NCBI RefSeq assembly: GCF_009914755.1
Contig: NC_060925.1
Source of the DNA: the human T2T-CHM13v2.0 reference genome, Homo sapiens
Length of the DNA stretch: 64,000 nucleotides
Direction: 5' to 3' (one strand)
The notes beneath the pieces were generated by a model that had not been told where the DNA came from, did no database searches, and was given only the letters and a program-made list of their open reading frames with translations. The first letter of the stretch is position 1. Each line of letters begins with the position of its first letter. Of this stretch, positions 9,281 through 57,843 are shown piece after piece. The position numbers and the translations under genes are program-made.

Positions 9281-11059
9281 TGGCAAAAAGCCAAACACAC
9301 TCATACGGTTCAGACATAGTGATTGCACCTAAATCCAAACTACTGTACTCTAAGCCAGTCACATCCTCTCTCTTATCACTTCCATAAGGTCTACCAGCCA
9401 TAAGTAAGTCAGGGGCTATCTGGGGACCACAGGAAAAAAGTCAGGGCACAAGGTGGCATTGATTTGCAAGGCCCAGGCCCCCAAAGGAGATTTTTCCAGA
9501 GATCCTTACTATTAAAACCCTAAGGGCACACAAAAGTTTATTGCAGCCATTTGGGAGTATGAGGTGTTTTTCTGCTCCATCAGCATAGGCTTGATGAACT
9601 AACTCAGTTAAAGTGAGTTCCAGGAGGCCGGGGTCATTGTGCACACCCAATTCCCTTCAGTGGCCCATGGATCTGAGCAGGCTGCCTTTGCAGGATTCCT
9701 TTGGGGCTGATCAGGAATCTGAATGCTTCAGCCAGAGCAGATCCCAATGCTGCAGAGCTATTTTGGAGAAGTCTTCATTTTCTTCGTTATTCCTCTTTTT
9801 GACTTAGCATGGAGTCCAGAAGTTGTCCATGGACCTCAAAGAAACACCTCAAATCAACAACCAGTGACTTTGCCATGCCGAGAGGGCATGAGAGAACTGC
9901 CCCTTTGCCTTGGCTGCTCTGAGAGGTCATGTGGGTTGAACGTGCAAGTGGAATCCTTCCAGGAATTGCCCTGTGGCCTGACTCAGAAGGGAAAAAAGTA
10001 AACATTACCATCTTAGGCCCAAATAGCTGGGGTTCTGAGGCTCAAGGCAGAAAGGGTGGTGAGCTCTGATGCACCCTCACTCACAGGTCAGGCTTGGCCA
10101 AAAGGCTCGGGTGGTCTTGCGTCCGACTGCCCATGGCTGAACTCTGAGGCTGATACATCCTGAGCACAAGGCCCTCAGTGCTTGGGAATTGATTGGGGCT
10201 AAAGGGAAAGAAAACTCAGGAAAGTCTTGAGTCTGGCGAGATACCCAATTACTTGGGCCCACTCTTGGGTGAGCCCACTGTGTGGTTTATTTTTCCTTTT
10301 AGTTTCCCTTCTGAGCCCAATACATCTCATGCCCAGGATGTTCTAGATCTCTCTGTGTGAGTTTCCCTGAGGACTTAGGAGCTAGGTTACCCTGTTTCAA
10401 GATGTCGGTCCTCAGGAAATGCTTGGAGGTCAAGCAAAGCACTTCTTGAAGGAGGACTTAGGGAAGGGAGTGGGTGAGTGGCTTTGTCTCCCAGGCCTAT
10501 TTCCATCTCATTGTTTCTTATTCTTCATGGGGTTCCCTTCCCAGCATCATGGGAGCGGACTGCCACCAATCATGGGGGGAAAAGAGTGTGATTCTTAACA
10601 TGCATCTGAAGACAGTCAGCAATGGCTGGGGTTGGTGGTTGGGTGATGGGTAGAACGTGCATTGGAACCAGGCATCTACTCTTGGATTATCTGGTCTACC
10701 TGCCACTCTAATTTTGAGTTTTCTAACTTAGCATGTGGGTTACTCTTATCTCTTTGATTATACCTTTTTTGTGTGACTTCCTCTAGTGGAGGGCCCACTG
10801 CAGGGCACCCAGTAGAATCCCAGCCCTACTTGCTGGGTGATAATGAGCTGGGAAACGTGCCCCTTTCTCAAGGAGAGTGTGGCTTCTGCTGGCTGAGATC
10901 TGGAATCCTGGCTTCTCATTCCAGCTCATCCTGTTGATGGGAGCCTCAGCGCTTAGCCTGATGCATCTCATGCATTCCGGTTCTGAATGACTAAGAAGCC
11001 TTGCCCTAGCAGAGGTGGGCAGGGGAGGAGGCTTGACAGGTAGGCCAGTGGCTCCCACT

Positions 11060-11470
11060 CCCCTGCCCTCCCCCATGCATTTTCTGCTCTTCCCTATCCT
11101 GCTCTGGACCCGAGGAGGCCGACCTCTACGGCCTGCATCACCAGTCCCCTTGCCCTCGAGCTTCCAGGTGTCTTAGCCAATGGGAGGCACTGGTAGGCAT
11201 GGAGGAAAGGAGGGAGAGTTTGGGGTATTGGTTTCCCATTCCCTCCAACTTCCTGTCTATGACCACGAATTCCATTCTACAGCCCCCTTCTACTACCCCA
11301 GCCCTCTCCGCCCAACAACAGCCTTCCCTCTCCCTGCCCCTCAGGCCCAAGGGTGGGAGTGGCCTCCTGCTGTTGCTGGGTACCAGCATTTCAGCCTCCC
11401 ATCCTGCCCAGACCTCTGTGTATAGTTCCTTCATGAAGACCCTGGGGGTGGGAGCCTTTGCTTCCTGCTG
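11060..11470 (-). mobile_element. LTR33/LTR16-like ERVL LTR remnant
   Basis: cccttgccctcgagcttccaggtgtcttagccaatgggaggcactgg...ggggtattggtttcccattccctcc resembles the LTR33 consensus. Confidence 0.5.
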
Positions 11471-48128: not shown

Positions 48129-48163
48129 GCTACAAGGAGCAGGGCATCCCACAGCAGCTGTGA
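48129..48163 (+). CDS. STUM: STUM terminal exon, coding part (G)YKEQGIPQQL*
   Basis: Branch-point-like CTAAC at 48097-48101, a pyrimidine tract, then cctcacAG|GC TAC AAG GAG CAG GGC ATC CCA CAG CAG CTG TGA. It is in frame with the upstream exons. Confidence 0.93.
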
Positions 48164-48962
48164 GCCCACGGGAGCCGCTGGGGAGATCCAGGGGGGCCCT
48201 GTGAGGGCTGCACCAGGCAGCTTTGGGCACAAGGACCTTTACATGTTCTTTTCTGCCATTTTCTGGACTGGGGGTGGAAAGGGGGTATTTTTAAAAATAT
48301 TATTTATTTTGAAAACGCATCTGCTTTTCTCAGCAGGTTGTGAGGGCTGCCAGCCCCTCCTGCTCTGGAAAGCACTGTGGGCGCAGGCACCAGAGCATCA
48401 GAGAGTGGGGTGGAGATGAGAACGCCCACAGAGAGGCTGGGATGCTCCGGCAGGCTCCAACTGGCCTTGCTGTACCCACTGCCCACCGCAAAGGCACGCC
48501 ACGTCTGCTGGGCCGGGCCACACCGGGCCCTGTCTGGGTGAGCAGGGGCTCACCAAGGGGACAGGACTGTGGTAGACCCGTCCTGTGGGACCCCACCTGC
48601 CTCAAAATCTGGTGCCCCGAGTGTTTACTGTGTGGTCTCCTGGGGGCAGCACCAGGGTGTGGGTGAGGATGGCCAGGCTCCACCCTAGCGTGGAAAGGCC
48701 CACTGTGCCCACAGCTGGCCTGAGGCCTCGGGGAGAAGACCAGTCCCACAGGCGTCTCCTGGGCCTGCCTCCCTGACCGCACCCCCCGCCTCCTCGCAGC
48801 TGAAATCTGAGGGCTGGGTGTGTCGTGACCTGTGTTTTCCTGGGAAGGAGAGGAGTAGCTCCTTCCCTGGGGTGAAACTGCCAGATGTTTATACACAAAG
48901 TTATTAGACTGAAGCAGGAGTGGGCAGACTAGCAGGCTTTCACCCAATACTTAACAGCATTT

Positions 48963-49292
48963 CTGGCCCACATTCCTTTTTCTGAAGTCATTGGGGCCAG
49001 ATGTGTCTCCGAATTGAGAAATTTTAGATTTGAGAAAGACAATGCGATCCATTTATCGTACACTTTCTAACTTCCCGGCAGAGTGTGGAACATCTCGCCT
49101 ACCATCAGGCACGTGAATATTTCTGCAGAGAAACATGTGACTAGTCCCATTAACTGGGAGCTATACAAACTGTAAATAGCCTCACCTCAGTTCAGTCTAA
49201 TTTTGCCACTAAGTAACTTAGGGAAAAACTTACCATTTGAGAGCTTTTAGGGTTTCAGAATTGCAAGAACAATTGTATGGGGTTGTGGACCT
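48963..49292. mobile_element. Possible Tigger-type (TcMar) MITE remnant within the 3' UTR
   Basis: Degenerate terminal inverted repeats ggcccacattcc / ggggttgtggacc around an AT-rich body. Confidence 0.4.
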
Positions 49293-50219
49293 TGATCTGA
49301 AAATCCTGCTTGCAAACAGATGTGTTAGAGGGTGAAATTGTCGGCATTACACAAGGACTCCTTCAGTTGCCAAAAGACCATGGGCCTCTTTAAGGAGCCC
49401 CTCTGTAAGTGATTGGGACAGGGCTAGATCCCTAATGGGGGCTAGGGGTGGGGAGAATCTAGCAGAAGTTGTCCAGGATACTGTGGATCAAGTATCAATC
49501 TGAAATTAAGAGAAATTAGATACTAAGAGGATGGACATTTACATGTCTGTTTCCTTTCCTTTCATTTTCATTCTAACATAGGAAATGCTAACAGATGGGG
49601 CTGGCCCAAAGTCAAGCTTCTGACTCCACTTGACACAGTGCCATTGGGCATGTCCCTCTCTGAAGGGCTTGTTTGTCTATCAGAGACTGTCAGAACTCCA
49701 TGAGGGCAGGAGAAGGGATTTTGCAGGATGAAAGTGCTTGGGAAGTAGTGGCCACCGTTCTGGGGGTTTCAGCCCACCTACCCCATCCACCGGGCTTTCT
49801 AATCACAGTCCTGCCTGAGAAGCGGGCCCTGCTGCCCACCCCTTATCATGGATCCCTTAGCTACTGTCCGTCTTCCATTGCTGCCTGGGGCTGGGCTGCC
49901 GTTTTTGAACACCTGGCAGTGTCTTTGTCGCGTCCTGTCCTCTCTTCTTACAGACCCCAACCCAGGCCTTTGCCTTCTTCTCTCCTGTTTGGAAGCCTCT
50001 GTATCTTCAAGGTGTGGGAACAGATTTGGTTTTCTCTAAAAAGCTAGAACCTTCTGCTGTGTGCAGCAGGCATCCTCCAGGCTGGTGCTGGCTGCTCTCG
50101 AGGAAGCTGCGTCAGAGTGGAGCTGCCCCTCTACTCAGATAAAATAGCTTCAGCTGCAGGAAGCCGCCCCCTCCCATGCCCACCAGCCCACAGCCCTTCA
50201 CCCCACACAGCCCCCAGAG

Positions 50220-51828
50220 TTTGCCCGACACCCCCTGAGTGATGACAGGTCTCAGGAGGGGGCCGCCCCCACAAATGGGAGGCGGAAGCTTATTTTCCCC
50301 GCTTGGGCTGGGGGCGGCTGCTGAGGGGGTGAAGAAGAGATAGCAATTTATGTCGCATGTTTAGTGACACAATCCAGATGCAGGTGGGACTTTCTTGAGT
50401 GGCAGGTGTCACCCTGGGTCCCGTGTGGGATGGTTTAATACAGGGGTTTGTGTGTTTGTGTGTGTGGAGGGCCACTGCGCCCCCAGATCCTCCTCTCCCC
50501 CGAGGGCTGCGTCTCTAAACCTGGGAAAACATCAGCCTCAGGAGGAGGCCCCTTTCCGGGTAACTGATGTGTGGGAGAAGCCAAGAGGCCCCTGCCTGTC
50601 TCCTGAATGAGGCTGTGAGGGTTGCCATGTGGGCGGGACCGGTTCAAAATAGCGCCCCCGCCCCTCTAAATTAGACCGTGGTCTCAGCATGATCATCTTC
50701 AGTAGATAAGGGACAGTGGCTGATTTACTCCAAATAGTTCCAGCTGGCCACTCAGACCAGGGCCAGAGTTAACTTCTCAAACACCAGCCAGCTGAAAATT
50801 AGGGTTCTCGTGCAGGCAAGTGCATGGTTGACACACAGCCCTTTGGTGACAAAGCTGGGCTTTGCCTGCATAGTGCAGACAAGGCTGTTGGTTCAGAGGC
50901 TGCAGGGCACATTCCAGGTTGGGGCCTTTTGTCGGTCGGAATTCAATAGGACATTCCCTGGCTGTGGGTGTTTAGGGCAGGAATTACAGGCTTGCAGAGA
51001 AAGTCAGAGGCAATGAGATGCTCCCAGTACCAAACTGTGACACTGGGATCAGGGTGGTCATTCCCTTGGGTCAGAGTGGGACCCTAGAGCCAGAGTGAGC
51101 TGTGGGTGGCCTGGGTGTGTCCTGTGGACGGCGGAGACTGTTGATTTGGATGTTGAGCTCTGAGTCAGTTTCAGAACCAAGGATCTCAGGCTGAGAAGGC
51201 CAGGTCCCCATGGGAGCGGCAGGAGTCTGATGGCTCTGCTGCCAGAGCCTACCCCAGCCTGCCACGCCGCTGACCTTCCCATGGTAAGGAAGGGGCAGGC
51301 AGCATGGTTCCCACCCTCAGCTGCCCCAGACCCACACATCCAGCCCCAAGAGCAGCCTCACCCAGGCACAGTGCAGGGCATTTTAGCTCCTGGGAGGGGA
51401 GATGCCTTTGTGAGTTTCAGATGTCAGAGGAGAAGCTCCGAGAGAGTAAGTCATGTGCCCCCAAACACTCAGCTCCTAAGTGGCAGGACAGGCAAGTGGC
51501 CAGGTTGGGCCGCCCCCACAGCCTGTGCCGTCCACACACTCACTACAGCACTCCCAGAAGAAGGAGCAGAATCGCATGCAGCCCAGAGCAGGTCCTGTGG
51601 AGGGGTCCTCACCCCTCAGGAGTAATAGGGTGATTATGTCACATGTTTAGTGATACAATCCCACCTGTGTCTGGATTGTGTCACTAAACATGCAACATAA
51701 ATTACCATCTCTTCTCCATCCCCTCAGCAGCCGCCCCCACCCCAAGCTGGGAAAATAAGCTTCTCCCTCCCATATGTGGGGGCGGCCCCCTCCTGAGACC
51801 TGTCATCACTTAGGGGGAGTTGGGCAAA
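50220..51828. repeat. Inverted repeat, arms 50220-50389 and 51659-51828 (170 bp each, ~91% identity, no gaps)
   Basis: Manual alignment of the left arm to the reverse complement of the right arm gives 15 substitutions in 170 nt. Confidence 0.95.
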
Positions 51829-54800
51829 ACCTCCTAGGAAGGTCCTGGACGCCTCCACCCTGCCCCACAAGGCTCCGTACTCCCACCTGCCTGGGCAGCC
51901 CTCACACCCATGCTCCCTCCTTTAGGCAGGCCCAGAAAGGTGCCCCTTCCTGAGGGTGTTGGGGGATGGCGGCAGAGAGACAGCTGGTATTAGGAGCTTC
52001 CCCATCCTAATGTGCAGGACCAAGTTGCCCGCTCTGCCAGCCAGGGGCTCCAGCCATGCTGGCACAGGCATCTCAGAGGTGTGAGATGAACTCCGCCTCA
52101 TGCAGGATGCCCAGGGCTCGGAAGCAGTAAGGAGGATGCTACAGAAAGGAACTGCAGAAAGAAAAAAAGCCACATGGTTAACTTTTCCCCTGGAGGGCAA
52201 AGGGGTCCGGCTCTCAAAAAGAAAAGCCAGGCACAGATCCCAACACCAAGTGTAAGGCAGCACAAAGTGGGTCTGAAACCCCAGGACCGGGTCAAAGGCC
52301 TTCCGAAGGCCCGAGGTTCTTGAGGAGGGGAAGCTGATAGGGCCCTGGTCTTTCTGCACCAGCGTGGCTCTTTAAAATACAAAACACCCACAAAGCCAAA
52401 AACCCTGAAACATGTTCTTTAGCTAACCCCTTCCCTGCCCAGATGCCTGCAATTCTGAGAATTCACTTCAGTTTTGCCAGATCCAACCCCTAGGCTTGAG
52501 GGTGGAGAGCCAGGCCTCCTCAGGGTCCCTTCTAGGCTCCCAGGCCCACCTTAGGCTTTAATTGCATTGGCTGTTTCTTATGGTGTTAGTGAATTTTGCA
52601 AAGAAAGCCCTGAGCATTGCATAAATGCTTGGGGGCGTGTCATTTAAATGGAAGTTCTCCAATAGTGGCTGAAGGCAGAGTTTACTGTTATCCCTCCCTC
52701 TTGCTGGCTTTGCTGGAGGGCTTTTATCAGAGAGATTGGAGGTGGGAGAGCACTTTTAAAGCACACCCCACCCCCTGCACCCGAGCGGCACCTAAGCTTC
52801 CCAGAGACCATGACCTTGTATGTGGCTGGAGGCCTCAGGCTTAGGGAGCAGCCTGAAGCCTTTGCTGTCAACCCTCCCAGGAAAGAAGCCGGGCCTCAGG
52901 CTGAGGAAAAACAGAGTTTCCTCTCCAGAGGGCTCAATGAGCAGCCAGGTAGTGGCCTCGGGCAGTCCTCACCAGGGGGACACCTCCCTGCTTTGCATTA
53001 ACTCATCAGCAAGCTCATCGAGAGCTAACGTGGGCCCAGCAGTCCTGTGCTTGGAAATGATGCCGTCACCTCCACACTCCTGCTGTTCCAGCCTCTGCAG
53101 GTGAAGCTGCAAGGTGAGCAGAGGCAGGCGTGGGGACACACTCTTCAAGGACTGCACTGCCCCTTCTCCCTCCTGAGAGCTCTGTGCACTGGGTTTGGGG
53201 ATGAGGCGCCAGCCTGGTCAGGGGAGGTGACTGTGGTCCTTCTGACCAGCTTGGATCTTTAAAATAATCACAAAAAAGCTCAGCCTGAGCAGGTGGGTGC
53301 AAGGCTCAGGGGCCTGTGTTTTTCATCAATCAGTTTTCTTCCTGCAAGATTCTTAGAGCTGGATGTTCACGGGATCATGGGGCATGGAGGTGGTCACGCT
53401 CAGACAGTCATGCACCACCCTCAATCCCAGGCCCTGCAGAGATAGGAAGAATCCCAACCAGAGGGATTCTTCCCCAAACGTTCCCTTGTGGCCCAAGAGT
53501 GAGTTCCGGCCTGAGTGCTGTTATGACTGCCGGCGTCTCTCCGACTGCCTCTCGCCTCAGTTTAACCATCTATAGGTTAGGAACAAAGAAGGGCTTAGGC
53601 AGCCATCGTTTCCCCATTTCTGTCAGAGCCAAGGGCTTGGAGGCCCAGCCCCATCCGGGCAAGGGCTGTCCGCTCCTGCCCAGGCCTCACCTCCTCGCTG
53701 CAGCTGGCAAGATTCTTTCTAGCAGAACAGAAACACTGGCCCCCAATTCCACTCTCCCCTCCTGATGCTACCGCAGAGGGCAGAAAGGTGCCCTGTAGCG
53801 TCCACCATGTGTGTGTCCTGAGTTTCCAGTGCAAGTCATCTGGATTTGCATTTAGCTAGGGAAACTCGGCCCTCAAACCCTCTCCCTCTCTGCCTGAATT
53901 TGCCAAAATGCCAACCATCCGGGCAGGTGTGGATGCCACAGTCCATCCCCATTGCATTTCACCCCCACATGGACAGAGGCACACACTCGCACACATTCCC
54001 AGCACCTTTGACTGCTGGGGGATGCAGGCCAGGGTCTGCCTGGAGCCTCAGGGTTGGGACTTATCTCCAAAGGAGCCCACACCCCCTCTTCCAGGATGGG
54101 CACTGGCTGGCAGCACTTTTTTCCCTCATCACATCCCTGACCCCTGCCCAGCCCACATGCACATGCTGTTTCCTGTCTCCAGGGCCCTAGCCTGTGGATC
54201 TCTTCCTCCCATGCACTCCTAGGGTGAATGGGCTCAGCACCAAACCTGGCTGTGCCCATTCCCCACAACCCCAGCTTGGCCTCCTGTGGGAAGGAGAAGG
54301 CAGACCTGCCCAGAGGAGAGGGGCAGTGTTCCCACCCACCTGCTCCAGCACAGGAACCAGGGAGGAAAGAAGGGAGAGGGAGGTTCCATTCACCGTTTTC
54401 TGGGTTAGCGCTTGATTGGATGTTTCAAGCAAGGGACAAGGTGATGGTGGCTGTAATAGGCTCCTCGTGGGCACCGTCACCCCAGAAGGCCTGGGCACCC
54501 ATGAGAACCTGTGGCCAGCCCTTTTCATTGGCTGAGTTCCCTGCTGTTGTGCGTGGTGCCATTTTTTTTTTAAACAACATATATAAAAACAAAACAACTG
54601 GTTCTGTGTGTATCAACTTAATTTGCATATGAATGAGTGTTGTGTTGTGATTTGCAGTGTTTTGACACCGTGATTGGCTTTGTTTGGGTCTCTCTTCTTT
54701 CTGTGAAATTAACTGCTGTGCGTTTTCACTGTTCTTAGAGAAGACCCTGAGCTCCTGGGGTTTTCTTGTCTCACTTCTACCCTGACCTGCTGGGAGCCCA

Positions 54801-55030
54801 CCCCACCCCAGTCCAGCCATGAGGGTATTTCCAGCCTATTCCAATGACTGAAACCCTTCTTGGAAGAAAACGTCTAATGTCGGGGACGTAGGGACGCTTC
54901 CAGACTTGCCCTGGCCGGAACCCTGCAGCCTGGGGCCCCAGCCCGCCTGCAGCTCAGCTTTCCCCAACACCCTCAGGACCCAGCCCCAGCCCCGGCAGAC
55001 CTTCCCTGGGAGCTGCTTAGGTGGTCTCCA

Positions 55031-55049
55031 CAGCGCCCTCTAGGGGCCA
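55031..55049 (-). promoter_or_regulatory. Candidate CTCF site
   Basis: Minus strand TGGCCCCTAGAGGGCGCTG versus consensus TGGCCASYAGRKGGCRSYR. Confidence 0.5.
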
Positions 55050-55315
55050 AGCAGGGTTCCAGATTCTCCAGCCTTCTGCCAGCTTTAAAACCCTTCACTC
55101 AAGCAGCATTACTGTACATGCAATGAAAAATACTATATATGACAGTCAAAACCTGTGTACATATTTCCATGTACATATTTATACATACACACACCTTCCT
55201 ATTATAAATATATAAAGCATGACATCTCTTTGGCATTCCAAGTTTGTGTTTTTTTAAATCCTTGGAAATACGGCTTTGGAAACCTTTTTCTTCCTTTCCC
55301 TCTTTTCTATGTTGT

Positions 55316-55321
55316 AATAAA
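55316..55321 (+). promoter_or_regulatory. STUM: Polyadenylation signal AATAAA of STUM
   Basis: gttgtAATAAAcattc, with an overlapping upstream UGUA (CFIm-type) and a U-rich upstream tract. U/GU-rich sequence follows (gtagtttctc, ctgtgtcc). Confidence 0.75.
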
Positions 55322-57843
55322 CATTCATGTGACCTTTCTGGTAGTTTCTCAAATCCCTGTGTCCTCCCGTGTTCCTAATCGGACAGATCTCTGGGACAAC
55401 GCGCCTTCCTCCCCACCTCTGCAGCCTTTGCTATTGGTTGGCTTTCCGTTATGAAGGCTGTCCTCCCCCAAGGCGGGTCTTGAGTTCTTTCAGACCTTTT
55501 TCCCGAATTCCCCTTCTTCCGAAAGGCTTGTGCAAGTTACTCTTCAAACAGCCTCATCTTTGATAATCTGATCCCTTTGCAACCAGGAATTTGCGTGCTA
55601 AATCAAGCATCAGGCCCCAGATTGAGTTTACCAAGAATAAGTGTACAGATGCAGCTCATTTCCTGCTGTTAATTGTTAGACTGGTTGATGAGGGAAATGT
55701 GGGCAACATACATATTTGACAAAGACTTCTGAATAAATGAGAGTCTGGGTAAGAGTGGTTAGGAGAATGTATAACTACCTGTTCAGTTACAACGAAGGAC
55801 AGGTTGCACCTGGGAGAGAATTGCATCCACAACCCAGCCAATGCCTTTACTCATAATGGGATGAAGACCTACAGAACTGACCAAATTTGTGGATAAGGAG
55901 AAATAAGTATATTAGACGAACAAATCAGAATCCCAAAATCTCCTGACGGGCAGAGGCAATCTAACTCGATGAAATCTAATAGCATTCAATGAAAGAGTTG
56001 TGCTTGACATGAAGAAAGCTCCGTGCTTTCCTTCATCCCTGGGGAGTTACTCAACAGGCAGCTCAGTGTTCTTCACGGCATGCTGGGGCTGACTACACAG
56101 GCCATCTGGTTTCAGATGCACGAGGAGCTGCAGGCTGGGGTCCGGAATGAAACCGCATCTGCAGCGTTGCATTCAGTACTGGGTGCCATGGGGGAGCAAG
56201 TGCTCTGACAACGAGTGTCCAGGTGTCATTCCTGTCACTCACACCCAAGGGAAGGGCCCCGCCCTGCCTCCTGCCATTTCCTCAGGCCAGCCCAGCACCC
56301 TTAGGGTCCACTTACCCCAGGAGAGGCTGCAGTCTTAATGGCCTCGATGCTGCTGTTGTCCAAAAGAGTGAATCATCTTCAAAGCACAACCTCTGGTGAG
56401 ACTTGAAGCTCTACTGCGATGGCCCCTCCAAGGCCCCAGAAATGGCATCTGTGCCTGAGGATGATTTCAGTTGCTGCTAAGACCAGGACCTAAAGCCCAA
56501 GGCAGTACAATGACCTAAGGCACTCTCAGAGTCCCCCAGACACTCTAGGGAGCATTTTGTGATCACTTGCATTGTCCAAACACTCGATGTGCTCAGATTA
56601 AACTGGAATGCCCCGGCTGGAGGATTCTTCTGCAGTCACTCAGTTTCAGAGGGGCTCATCAGAAGGCACAATGGGAGATAAAGTTAGCTCCCCTTCCAGC
56701 ACTGCCAAGTGAAGGGAAGATACCATTTGAATGTACTAACTCACATTCCTTCTCTTCTCCCAGCACCAAGCCTCTTAACCTCAGGAAGGGTCACGTGGGT
56801 TGAGCCAGCCACTGCCTCTCTGCTGGGGGGTGACAACTTTGACAGAGTTCTCCTCAAACCCAGAAGGAAAGGGCTGTGACAAACATGTAGGCATCTGCTC
56901 CCCGCAACTCCCTACACCCCAGACCCTAGGCCCTGGGAGAGGCTCATGCTTGCCAGTGGCCAGTCACAGGAAGGGACACATGAGGATGTGCAGGGGACGA
57001 GGGGCTCGAGGAGATGGGAAGGCAGTGCTTGGGTTTGAGGACGGGGTTGGCGATGCATTCCTCAGAGGAGGAGCACAGCCCAAACCTAGTGCAGTGAGAG
57101 TCCCAGGTGGGGGACCCTGGGAGGCACATCAGTGCAGGCTGCATGTTGGGCCACCGAAACCAGAGGATGGGTCTTCATTCCCAAGAGGACCAAGATGGAC
57201 ATTTCTGGGCTCCTAATACCAAGTCAGCCTCTGAGTAAAGCCTTAGGGAAGGGTCATGGGACCCAAGATTCAGTTTACATAAAACACGTCAGGAACAACT
57301 TGGGGTGATAAAGTTGCAGGACTTTTCCTTAGTTCAGCCAAGAAAATTCAGGCTCACAGACAATTTGAATGGTGAGTGAGACAGGGTTTTATTGGGTGAA
57401 AAGGAAGAAAAGGGGGAAACAGGGAGTCTCGCTGGGCCAGAGACCCTGCTAGAGCGCTTCCTGCCCACAGCTTGAGTCCCAGGTTCCACATAGGAAAGGG
57501 GGGGCGAGGCTCCTCCCTGCTGCAAACGTCATGAACTTCCCAAGGCTCCACCTCACTGTGCAGGCCGGTTGGAGTTTCTGCAGTGACCCCCTCCCACCTG
57601 GCTGTCCCATTCCCGCCTCGAAAGAAGTCCATCTAACTGCCCTTAGATTAAGGATAAGGATGAAGACTGATCTTAACTGCTTCCTGCTGACAGGGGGCAC
57701 TGTTTTTGGGAAATGGCAGTCAGAGGTCCCTCAGATGCCTGTCTAAGGGTCCCCAGCAGAAGAGGCCATCATCAGAAGCTCCGGTTGCATGACTGTTCAG
57801 AGTTTGATGGCCTGAAGGCAAGAACAGACAAACGGGGTCATTA

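What the first reader, a model, noticed from the sequence alone, without database searches (positions are those of the whole stretch)
51629..51706. Pri-miRNA-shaped hairpin made by a third partial copy; mutually exclusive with the long-range duplex
Seen: TTATGTCACATGTTTAGTGATACAATCC (51634-51661) pairs with GGATTGTGTCACTAAACATGCAACATAA (51673-51700). That gives 25 Watson-Crick pairs, 1 G:U and a 2-nt internal mismatch, closed by an 11-nt loop CACCTGTGTCT containing UGUG. A further 5 pairs (GGTGA/TTACC, one bulged A) extend the stem to ~33 bp, and CNNC motifs follow (catc, cttc, ctcc). The 5' arm is a direct copy of ~50348-50375, so the 3' arm can pair either locally or with the distant arm. 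Known: a ~33-35-bp stem, a loop of 10 nt or more, apical UGUG and downstream CNNC are Microprocessor determinants. Inference: a candidate unannotated miRNA, or a Drosha cleavage site in the mRNA gated by a conformational switch. The three-copy layout suggests origin by replication template switching.
Basis: partly seen in the sequence, partly recalled or inferred. Interest (0 to 1): 0.72.

Follow-up and report, generated by a model that had tools for sequence, protein, structure and literature searches.

The report
Template-switch hairpin in STUM 3'UTR
A real, very stable RNA hairpin sits in the tail of the human STUM gene as the inner end of a single-copy inverted duplication, but nothing shows that it makes a microRNA, and folding predicts that a longer distant pairing takes it apart.

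Summary
51634-51661 pairs with 51673-51700 (25 of 28 complementary, 11-nt loop). The full hairpin 51629-51706 has 31 pairs and folds at -39.5 kcal/mol, z = -8.8. It lies at the inner edge of a gapless 170-nt, 91% inverted repeat (50220-50389 / 51659-51828). All copies are unique to this locus in the genome. The direct copy and the inverted arm share 3 nt (TCC) at their junction, a template-switch signature. The CA/CA internal loop is a decayed CpG, so the hairpin began perfect and is eroding.

The miRNA reading has no support. No Rfam family matches, and the RefSeq table supplied with the finding lists no MIR gene. Of four Microprocessor motifs, CNNC is in place, UGUG is off position, and basal UG and mGHG are absent. 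With the distal arm present, predicted hairpin probability falls from 0.99 to about 1e-21. The long duplex wins by 30.6 kcal/mol and buries the CNNC flank. The UTR has one canonical poly(A) signal, so the distal arm is always present. Published base rate: 0.9% of such hairpins are annotated miRNAs (PMC10710096).

Most likely this is a neutral by-product whose main RNA consequence is a ~170-bp non-repeat dsRNA. No small-RNA, editing or primate data could be consulted.

The parts
51629..51706 (+). Complete local hairpin in the STUM 3'UTR: 31 pairs, one 2-nt internal loop, one bulged A (51700), 11-nt apical loop
   Evidence: -39.5 kcal/mol, z -8.80, 0 of 200 shuffles as good
51634..51661 (+). 5' arm, called copy C here: a direct copy of 50348-50375 (26 of 28)
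   Evidence: (D2, I2)
51662..51672 (+). Apical loop CACCTGTGTCT, with TGTG at 51666-51669. It is part of arm B, being the reverse complement of 50376-50386 with 2 differences
51673..51700 (+). 3' arm of the hairpin. This is the contested segment, because it also pairs with 50348-50375
50220..50389 (+). Arm A of the long inverted repeat (170 nt, 58% GC, 6 CpG)
   Evidence: (I1)
51659..51828 (+). Arm B of the long inverted repeat: 155 of 170 complementary to arm A with no gaps. Duplex energy is -327.2 kcal/mol
51659..51661 (+). TCC shared by the end of copy C and the start of arm B: 3-nt microhomology at the strand-switch junction
   Evidence: Coordinates; sequences
51640..51641 (+). The 5' half of the CA/CA internal loop (partner 51693-51694). 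This is a decayed CpG: arm A keeps TCGC, copy C has TCAC, and the reverse complement of arm B has TTGC
   Evidence: three-way comparison
51711..51720 (+). CNNC motifs at 51711, 51714 and 51717. The one at 51711 is 17 nt beyond the inferred 3p Drosha cut. All lie inside arm B and are predicted to pair with arm A
51456..51520 (+). A degenerate fourth fragment in direct orientation. It resembles the first ~54 nt of the arm and ends in an exact 14-mer (51507-51520) shared with arm A (50260-50273) and, inverted, with arm B (51775-51788)
   Evidence: D3, I5; 3 matches against 0.02 expected; 0 of 500 shuffles against the reverse complement of arm B
55316..55321 (+). The only AATAAA or ATTAAA on the + strand in the 3'UTR (48164-55353). 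It follows that both arms are present in the mature mRNA

Best explanation
The hairpin is the best-preserved inner end of a single-copy, multi-piece inverted duplication in the STUM 3'UTR. The duplication was made by replication template switching (microhomology-mediated strand switch), probably in the primate lineage. When formed, the 28-bp core was perfect, and it has since decayed by ordinary substitutions. It is most likely not a miRNA gene.

At the RNA level the local hairpin can form first as the transcript emerges. Once the rest of arm B is made, arm B zips onto arm A, 1.27 kb upstream, and branch migration displaces the 5' arm. The result is a ~170-bp imperfect intramolecular dsRNA in every full-length STUM mRNA. 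The expected consequence is binding by dsRNA-binding proteins, with ADAR editing the likeliest in brain, rather than Microprocessor cleavage.

Shown here: the anatomy, single-copy status, junction microhomology, CpG decay and predicted thermodynamics. Inferred: the mutational mechanism, the age, folding in vivo, ADAR or dsRBP binding, and the absence of processing.
For: Anatomy. A gapless 170-nt, 91% inverted repeat is accompanied by a 28-nt direct copy abutting it with a 3-nt overlap.

Copy number. A 136-nt query and an 1,851-nt query find only this locus in the 3.1-Gb assembly. The 28-mer with up to 3 mismatches occurs exactly 3 times genome-wide, all here, with 0 control matches.

Decay without compensation. 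At each of the 3 sites where the three 28-nt copies differ, two copies agree. The CA/CA loop comes from two independent CpG transitions that break pairing rather than restore it. Between arms A and B there are 15 differences, 10 transitions and 5 transversions, and 5 of the 15 are at CpGs. By my count, only 6 of the 10 transitions give G.U on the mRNA strand, which is about the 50% expected without selection for pairing.

Thermodynamics. The full 1,751-nt fold reaches -854.9 kcal/mol using the long duplex through 51659-51700. Forcing the hairpin gives -824.3. The mean pair probability of the hairpin's upper stem is 0.992 without arm A, in both a 501-nt and a 1,501-nt context. With arm A it is 2.6e-21, while the A:B pairs reach 0.963. 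There is one canonical poly(A) signal, at 55316.

No family membership. The best Rfam hit is 22 bits against a gathering score of 79.

Literature. Template switching creates perfect hairpins in one event. 6,054 miRNA-sized hairpins arose this way in genic regions of the human lineage, and only 57 (0.9%) are in miRBase (PMC10710096, Results read). Non-repetitive dsRNAs average about 2 per Mb and are rare in exons (PMC11838218, section 9 and passages).
Against: Nothing here measures RNA in cells. Thermodynamic prediction over 1.3 kb ignores kinetics, proteins and helicases, and Microprocessor can act on nascent RNA (recalled), when the local hairpin is the favoured state. The hairpin has a near-optimal stem (33 positions against ~35), an 11-nt loop and a correctly spaced CNNC. 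Rfam does not hold every miRBase entry, and miRBase and MirGeneDB could not be queried directly. Neutral decay is argued from few sites: 3 in the hairpin and 15 in the long repeat. The order of the duplication events, and whether there was one event or several, cannot be settled without other primate genomes. The patchy fourth fragment (51456-51520) does not fit a single simple event.
Confidence: 0.62

Rival explanations
1. The hairpin is an unannotated, young canonical miRNA. It forms co-transcriptionally before arm B finds arm A, is cropped by Drosha/DGCR8 about 13 nt from its base and then diced. The ~22-nt products would come from about 51642-51663 and 51673-51694.
For: The stem has 31 pairs over 33 positions and the loop is 11 nt. 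CNNC at 51711 lies 17 nt beyond the inferred 3p cut, and TGTG is in the loop. Without arm A the hairpin has P = 0.99. 18 human MirGeneDB miRNAs arose by the same mutational route. One motif can suffice for efficient cleavage (PMC10954719, passage).
Against: The base rate is 57 of 6,054, or 0.9%. There is no Rfam match, no MIR gene in the supplied RefSeq table, and neither arm's 20-mer appears in the searched literature. Basal UG is absent (GG at 51628-51629), no mGHG is present, and UGU starts about 25 nt from the cut rather than about 22 (positions from PMC7174388 passages). CNNC has a 22% chance expectation and TGT/GTG a 24% one. In the full UTR the 3' flank is predicted to be double-stranded.
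Confidence: 0.06
2. The hairpin is a non-canonical Drosha cleavage site that destabilises STUM mRNA without yielding a stable miRNA. Access would be gated by the choice between local and distal pairing.
For: Drosha cleaves stem-loops inside mRNAs. Such substrates are more prone to alternative structures and lack the canonical motifs (PMC10954719, abstract and passages). This element has two competing structures.
Against: The competing structures differ by 30.6 kcal/mol, which is not a poised switch. Arm A is always present because there is a single poly(A) signal. STUM is not named in the main text of that paper (0 occurrences), though the paper used mouse ES cells. No selection for pairing is visible.
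Confidence: 0.04
3. The long duplex, with or without the hairpin, is a selected regulatory dsRNA element. It would be a Staufen- or ADAR-binding platform that controls localisation, stability or nuclear retention of STUM mRNA in neurons.
For: A 170-bp non-repeat inverted repeat in a 3'UTR is a rare class (about 2 non-repetitive dsRNAs per Mb, exonic ones rare). A 37-nt block of the arms is identical in both arms. The 14-mer is identical in all three places where it occurs. Conserved dsRNAs are reported to be enriched in cortex-expressed genes (PMC11838218, passage).
Against: The arms are 8.8% diverged with 9 true mismatches, and wobble-preserving transitions show no excess: 6 of 10. No cross-species data were available.
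Confidence: 0.12
4. The element is a source of Dicer-dependent endogenous siRNA. Small RNAs cut from the hairpin or the 170-bp duplex would act back on the other copies in the same UTR.
For: The helices are long and near-perfect. The only genomic sites within 3 mismatches of the 28-mer are the three copies in this UTR.
Against: Endo-siRNA production from long dsRNA is weak in mammalian somatic cells (recalled, not tested). No small-RNA data were available. ADAR editing would antagonise dicing (recalled).
Confidence: 0.04
5. The 1.6-kb unit is an old DNA transposon or MITE with 170-bp terminal inverted repeats, and the hairpin is part of its terminal structure.
For: Two inverted arms flank a 1,269-nt spacer.
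Against: It is single-copy in the 3.1-Gb assembly at the sensitivity used, which did detect an 80%-identical 67-nt self-match. The flanks show no target-site duplication: CCCCAGAG lies before arm A and ACCTCCTA after arm B. The extra 28-nt direct copy is not explained by this model.
Confidence: 0.02

Closest known systems
Template-switch-mutation (TSM) hairpins of primates, some of which became miRNAs such as hsa-mir-4713 and hsa-mir-576 (Monttinen, Frilander and Loytynoja, PNAS 2023, PMC10710096)
   Same: An inverted copy of nearby sequence creates a perfect ~28-nt stem in one event. mir-4713 was made by a 28-base TSM. Later point changes add mismatches. [quoted passage not shown]
   Different: This hairpin sits in a 3'UTR exon, whereas 81 of 99 intragenic TSM miRNAs are intronic. 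It is coupled to a much larger 170-nt inverted duplication 1.27 kb away that competes for its 3' arm. There is no expression evidence. The parent/child phylogenetic test that defines a TSM could not be run.
Long intramolecular 3'UTR dsRNAs, of which inverted Alu pairs are the usual case and which are ADAR and Staufen substrates; also the dsRNAscan catalogue (Andrews and Bass preprint, PMC11838218)
   Same: Two inverted arms in one 3'UTR, about 1.3 kb apart, are predicted to form a ~170-bp imperfect helix.
   Different: The arms are not a dispersed repeat but a locus-specific duplication. The length and pairing (170 bp, 91%) fall below that paper's threshold for putative MDA5 substrates (over 300 bp and over 96% paired, passage). 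Editing was not examined.
Non-canonical Drosha substrates in mRNAs, such as the Dgcr8 hairpins and mouse ES-cell mRNA stem-loops (Gu et al., Sci Rep 2024, PMC10954719)
   Same: A stem-loop embedded in an mRNA has competing alternative structures and an incomplete motif set.
   Different: Those substrates are defined by Drosha-dependent 5'-phosphate ends, and none is known here. This hairpin is more stable and more regular than that class is described to be (abstract).
Canonical pri-miRNA hairpins (motif positions from Li et al., Nat Commun 2020, PMC7174388)
   Same: The stem is close to 35 bp, the loop exceeds 10 nt, and CNNC lies 16-18 nt into the 3' basal segment.
   Different: There is no basal UG and no mGHG. 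UGU is not at the apical junction. The 3' basal segment is predicted to be double-stranded in the native transcript. No reads are known.

Membership tests
Canonical pri-miRNA / miRNA gene | Stem of about 35 bp and an apical loop of 10 nt or more | tested here: met
   31 pairs plus a 2-nt internal loop give 33 stem positions, with an 11-nt loop. The criterion is from PMC10710096 and PMC7174388.
Canonical pri-miRNA / miRNA gene | Single-stranded basal segments on both sides of the stem (criterion recalled) | tested here: inconclusive
   Folded alone, the flanks are mostly open. In the 1,751-nt context, either the 3' arm is taken by arm A or, with the hairpin forced, 51707-51828 is paired to arm A. 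This is prediction only.
Canonical pri-miRNA / miRNA gene | Basal UG about 14-13 nt upstream of the 5p cut | tested here: not met
   With the cut placed 13 nt from the base (after 51641), positions -14 and -13 are 51628-51629, which read GG.
Canonical pri-miRNA / miRNA gene | Apical UGU about 22 nt from the cut, at the apical junction | tested here: inconclusive
   TGTG lies at 51666-51669, which is loop nt 5-8 and about +25 from the cut. TGT or GTG occurs in 24% of 11-mers of this UTR.
Canonical pri-miRNA / miRNA gene | CNNC 16-18 nt into the 3p basal segment | tested here: met
   CTTC at 51711 is +17 from the inferred 3p end at 51694. The chance of a CNNC at any of 3 positions in this UTR is 22%. 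The site is predicted to be paired in the native context.
Canonical pri-miRNA / miRNA gene | Mismatched GHG in the lower stem, around -7 to -5 | tested here: not met
   51635-51637 reads TAT and is fully paired. The exact motif window is partly recalled; one search gives 'the -5 position'.
Canonical pri-miRNA / miRNA gene | About 22-nt reads from both arms with Drosha/Dicer 2-nt offsets and homogeneous 5' ends | not testable with these tools
   No small-RNA, CLIP or degradome data are on hand.
Canonical pri-miRNA / miRNA gene | Match to a described miRNA family or an annotated MIR gene | tested here: not met
   Among the 4,227 Rfam 15 families, the best are mir-1265 at 22.0 bits (gathering score 79) and mir-962 at 20.9 bits (gathering score 70), both on the minus strand. 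The supplied RefSeq table lists only STUM. miRBase and MirGeneDB were not queried directly.
Template-switch (TSM) hairpin | An inverted fragment of 15 nt or more copied from nearby sequence | tested here: met
   28-nt arms lie 11 nt apart.
Template-switch (TSM) hairpin | The event explains a cluster of 5 or more differences between reconstructed parent and child nodes | not testable with these tools
   No primate or other mammalian genomes are held.
Template-switch (TSM) hairpin | Microhomology at a switch point (supporting, not defining; recalled) | tested here: met
   Copy C ends at 51661 and arm B starts at 51659, so they share TCC. Three nt is weak evidence on its own.
Long intramolecular dsRNA / ADAR substrate | Two inverted arms in one transcript, predicted to pair | tested here: met
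   Both arms lie in exon 48129-55353 of NM_001003665.4 (supplied table). The duplex energy is -327.2 kcal/mol, and the contested 28 A:B pairs have a mean probability of 0.963.
Long intramolecular dsRNA / ADAR substrate | Clustered A-to-I editing in both arms | not testable with these tools
   No RNA-seq or editing database is available. No paper holds both C1orf95 and 'RNA editing'. The 4 papers holding both STUM and ADAR were seen only as search listings and looked unrelated.
DNA transposon / MITE with terminal inverted repeats | Multiple dispersed copies | tested here: not met
   Only this locus matches.
DNA transposon / MITE with terminal inverted repeats | Target-site duplication flanking the arms | tested here: not met
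   The flanks differ.

The most novel reading that the evidence does not exclude
This could be a primate-born, self-contained regulatory module. The hairpin would exist only in the nascent transcript, in the interval before arm B has zipped onto arm A, and Microprocessor would cut it in that interval. The kinetics of transcription and long-range folding would then set how much STUM mRNA is truncated. Any small RNA released would have its only near-perfect genomic targets in the other two copies within the same 3'UTR, so the gene would make its own slicing guide.
Probability: 0.04. Interest if true: 0.65.

Novelty: new member of a known kind. Interest (0 to 1): 0.28.

Why it matters
If the ordinary reading holds, the value is modest. 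It is a clean, single-copy example of how template switching builds both a miRNA-shaped hairpin and a long non-Alu dsRNA inside a brain gene's 3'UTR. It also cautions that Microprocessor-like shape and motifs arise readily by chance: 67 of 12,786 windows in this 64 kb give an unbranched hairpin of 28 or more pairs.

The locus does have one practical use. Copy C and arm A compete for the same partner. The distribution of A-to-I editing between 51634-51661 and 50348-50375 in existing brain RNA-seq would therefore show, in vivo, which fold the mRNA adopts. That makes a local-versus-long-range folding question testable without new experiments.

A 170-bp non-repeat duplex in a 3'UTR also belongs to a sparse class that matters for ADAR, Staufen, PKR and MDA5 biology.

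Tried and rejected
1. Known RNA family. An Rfam scan of 49500-52500 at E up to 10 gave 10 sub-threshold hits, none near its gathering score.

2. Dispersed repeat or transposon. Three whole-genome searches found only the local copies, and there is no target-site duplication. Rejected.

3. Extension of copy C leftward as true homology. The 113 nt between the fourth fragment and copy C (51521-51633) show no similarity to the arm: 247 and 250 of 500 shuffles score as well. The extra GGTGA/TTACC pairs are therefore probably chance or secondary. The two sites where that stretch agrees with arm B rather than arm A were not enough to order the events.

4. Literature. No paper holds C1orf95 together with 'inverted repeat' (0) or with 'RNA editing' (0). 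C1orf95 with 'novel miRNA' gave 2 listings that looked unrelated. STUM with ADAR gave 4 listings, and STUM with microRNA and UTR gave 6; by title and abstract start none concerned this element. The 20-mers of either arm gave 0 papers. These searches cover DNA spelling only, main text only, and the plus strand only. RNA spelling, reverse complements and supplementary tables of novel-miRNA catalogues were not searched.

6. Comparative genomics. No vertebrate genomes other than the window's own assembly are held, so presence or absence in other primates, conservation and covariation could not be examined.

7. Raw MFE as a discriminator. Rejected, because GC-rich windows fold as well or better.
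Full report
**1. The observation**

The repeat finder reports arms 51634-51661 and 51673-51700, 28 nt and 89% complementary, 11 nt apart. The 5' arm is a 93% direct copy of 50348-50375. A 170-nt, 91% inverted repeat joins 50220-50389 with 51659-51828, with 1,269 nt between the arms. A blastn self-comparison confirms that the 170-nt match is gapless, with 15 mismatches, and that no other part of the 64-kb window is related.

As RNA, 51629-51706 folds into one hairpin of 31 pairs with a 2-nt internal loop, a bulged A and an 11-nt loop. Its energy is -39.5 kcal/mol, z = -8.80 against dinucleotide shuffles, and 0 of 200 shuffles fold as well. In 136 nt the values are -59.9 kcal/mol and z = -8.34. 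The minus strand folds almost as well, at -58.5 kcal/mol and z = -6.35. The feature is real and is not a chance arrangement.

Two caveats on rarity:
- Among short-range inverted repeats in the whole window it is the only one above 80% complementarity; 8 were found and the others are 71-79%.
- In raw energy it is not exceptional. I folded 12,786 80-nt windows (step 10, both strands). Of these, 15 reach -40.5 kcal/mol or lower. 67 give an unbranched hairpin of 28 or more pairs, and only 4 of those 67 are this hairpin. miRNA-like shape alone is therefore weak evidence.

**2. Anatomy and origin**

I call 50220-50389 arm A, 51659-51828 arm B and 51634-51661 copy C.
- Copy C equals the segment of arm A that lies 14 nt from A's inner end.
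- Arm B is the reverse complement of all of arm A.
- The hairpin loop is therefore part of arm B, as the inverted version of 50376-50386.
- Copy C (ending at 51661) and arm B (starting at 51659) overlap by TCC.

A direct fragment joined through 3 nt of microhomology to an inverted copy of the same source is what a strand switch during replication leaves behind.

The element is locus-specific. A 136-nt query and an 1,851-nt query against the 3.1-Gb assembly returned only this locus and its own inverted matches. The 28-mer with up to 3 mismatches occurs exactly three times in the genome, all here, with no control matches. There is no target-site duplication. It is therefore not a transposon family.

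There is a fourth piece. An exact 14-mer occurs three times in the window, against 0.02 expected and with 0 of 100 shuffles reaching three matches. It sits in arm A, inverted in arm B, and at 51507-51520. The 50 nt before that third copy align with gaps to the outer part of the arm. The score was reached by 0 of 500 shuffles against the reverse complement of arm B, and by 4 of 500 against arm A (first seen). The 113 nt between this fragment and copy C are unrelated to the arm: 247 and 250 of 500 shuffles score as well. The locus is thus a patchwork of at least four pieces. Whether one multi-switch event or several successive ones made it cannot be decided without outgroup genomes, which are not held.

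**3. Evolutionary state**

At each of the three sites where the 28-nt copies differ, two of the three agree. The CA/CA internal loop of the hairpin is a decayed CpG. Arm A keeps TCGC, copy C has TCAC, and the reverse complement of arm B has TTGC. These are two independent CpG transitions, each of which breaks a pair instead of restoring one. The hairpin core was therefore once a perfect 28-bp helix and is eroding.

Arms A and B differ at 15 of 170 sites: 10 transitions and 5 transversions, with 5 at CpGs. The K2P distance is 0.095. By my count, 6 of the 10 transitions leave a G.U on the mRNA strand and 4 give mismatches, which is what no selection for pairing predicts. With assumed (recalled) neutral rates of 1.0-2.2e-9 per site per year, the two arms separated roughly 22-47 million years ago. 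That suggests an origin within primates. This is inference and ignores gene conversion.

**4. Which fold the mRNA adopts**

The full 1,751-nt stretch 50150-51900 has an MFE of -854.9 kcal/mol. In that structure arm B, including 51659-51700, pairs with arm A. Forcing the local hairpin gives -824.3 kcal/mol, which is 30.6 kcal/mol worse. In that state 51707-51828 still pair with arm A. Only the inner 42 nt are contested, so the two structures are not wholly exclusive.

| Context folded | Mean pair probability, hairpin upper stem | Mean pair probability, contested A:B pairs |
|---|---|---|
| 501 nt, without arm A | 0.992 | not applicable |
| 1,501 nt, without arm A | 0.992 | not applicable |
| 1,751 nt, with arm A | 2.6e-21 | 0.963 |

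The 3'UTR (48164-55353) has a single AATAAA or ATTAAA, at 55316, so arm A accompanies the hairpin in every canonical mRNA.

The likely course is as follows. The local hairpin forms first as arm B's inner end emerges. The outer 128 nt of arm B then zip onto arm A, and branch migration displaces copy C. The kinetic steps are inferred.

**5. The miRNA and Drosha reading**

Motif positions are taken from passages of PMC7174388. [quoted passage not shown] The optimal stem is about 35 bp. UGU lies about 22 nt from the cut. UG lies 14-13 nt upstream of the cut. CNNC lies 16-18 nt into the 3p basal segment. mGHG lies in the lower stem.

I placed the 5p cut after 51641 and the 3p end at 51694. The features then score as follows:
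- Stem: 33 positions, close to optimal.
- Upper stem: 20 bp.
- Basal UG: absent (GG).
- mGHG: absent (paired UAU).
- UGUG: present but mid-loop, at about +25.
- CNNC: present at +17.

In this UTR a CNNC falls in any 3-position window 22% of the time, and TGT or GTG occurs in 24% of 11-mers. The two motifs that are present therefore add little. The CNNC lies inside arm B and is predicted to be double-stranded whichever fold forms.

No Rfam family is approached. The RefSeq table supplied with the finding shows no MIR gene. No paper in the searched library contains either arm's 20-mer in DNA spelling.

The best available prior comes from Monttinen et al. (PMC10710096; outline and Results read). 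Of 6,054 miRNA-sized template-switch hairpins in human genic regions, 57 (0.9%) are annotated miRNAs. I put a canonical miRNA at about 6% and a non-canonical Drosha cleavage site at about 4%.

Drosha does cut mRNA stem-loops that lack the motifs and have alternative folds (PMC10954719, abstract and passages). Cropping can also be co-transcriptional (recalled). Neither reading is therefore excluded.

**6. What it most likely is and does**

It is a neutral by-product of a template-switch inverted duplication. Its principal RNA-level consequence is a ~170-bp, 91%-paired, non-repeat intramolecular duplex in the STUM 3'UTR. That duplex is a probable substrate for ADARs and other dsRNA-binding proteins; this is inferred from general knowledge and was not tested.

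Such non-repetitive dsRNAs are sparse, at about 2 per Mb, and rare in exons according to Andrews and Bass (PMC11838218; section 9 and passages read). Their main text does not name STUM, and their catalogue and supplements were not open to me. The duplex is below their bar for putative MDA5 ligands (over 300 bp and over 96% paired).

**7. Comparison and novelty**

The hairpin works like, and probably is, a member of the known class of template-switch hairpins. The defining phylogenetic test for that class could not be run. It resembles a pri-miRNA in shape but fails two motif tests and the family test, and it lacks the defining read evidence. It should not be filed as a miRNA. The coupling of a local hairpin to a long-range duplex that competes for the same strand is an uncommon arrangement, but it follows from the duplication geometry.

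**8. Verdict**

- Observation: confirmed.
- Interpretation: partly supported. The origin and the alternative pairing hold, but the miRNA or Drosha function does not.
- Novelty: new member of a known kind.
- Interest: 0.28.

The cheapest decisive checks are primate alignments, brain small-RNA reads, and the distribution of A-to-I editing between arm A and copy C.

Noticed in passing
window 51456-51520 (exact 14-mer at 51507-51520; also at 50260-50273 and inverted at 51775-51788): This is a fourth, degenerate, direct-orientation fragment of the repeat arm. It ends in a GC-rich 14-mer that is identical in all three places, although the surrounding sequence has indels. It gives arm B a second local pairing partner (I5). 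The patchy identity is unexplained; possible causes are short conversion tracts, several template switches, or constraint on the 14-mer.
   Followed up: partly
window 50220-50389 versus 51659-51828: Arm A retains 6 CpGs, while the reverse complement of arm B retains 2. Arm A abuts a RefSeq 'enhancer' element (50371-51050 in the supplied table). Lower methylation of arm A might explain the asymmetry.
   Followed up: no
window 48164-55353: The 7.2-kb STUM 3'UTR contains only one canonical poly(A) hexamer on the + strand, at 55316. Shorter UTR isoforms would therefore need non-canonical signals.
   Followed up: no
window 51600-51617: A small 7-bp GC-rich hairpin lies 11 nt upstream of the main hairpin base and forms in both the MFE and centroid folds.
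   Followed up: no
window 51711-51800 (minus strand) and 11001-11090 (minus strand): These are the most stable 80-nt folds in the whole window, at -45.9 and -44.2 kcal/mol. The first lies inside arm B and involves the GC-rich 14-mer region. The second is an unrelated intronic GC-rich hairpin.
   Followed up: no
window-wide: Apart from the 4 windows covering this hairpin, 63 other 80-nt windows on either strand fold into an unbranched hairpin of 28 or more pairs. This is a local measure of how common pri-miRNA-like shapes are.
   Followed up: partly
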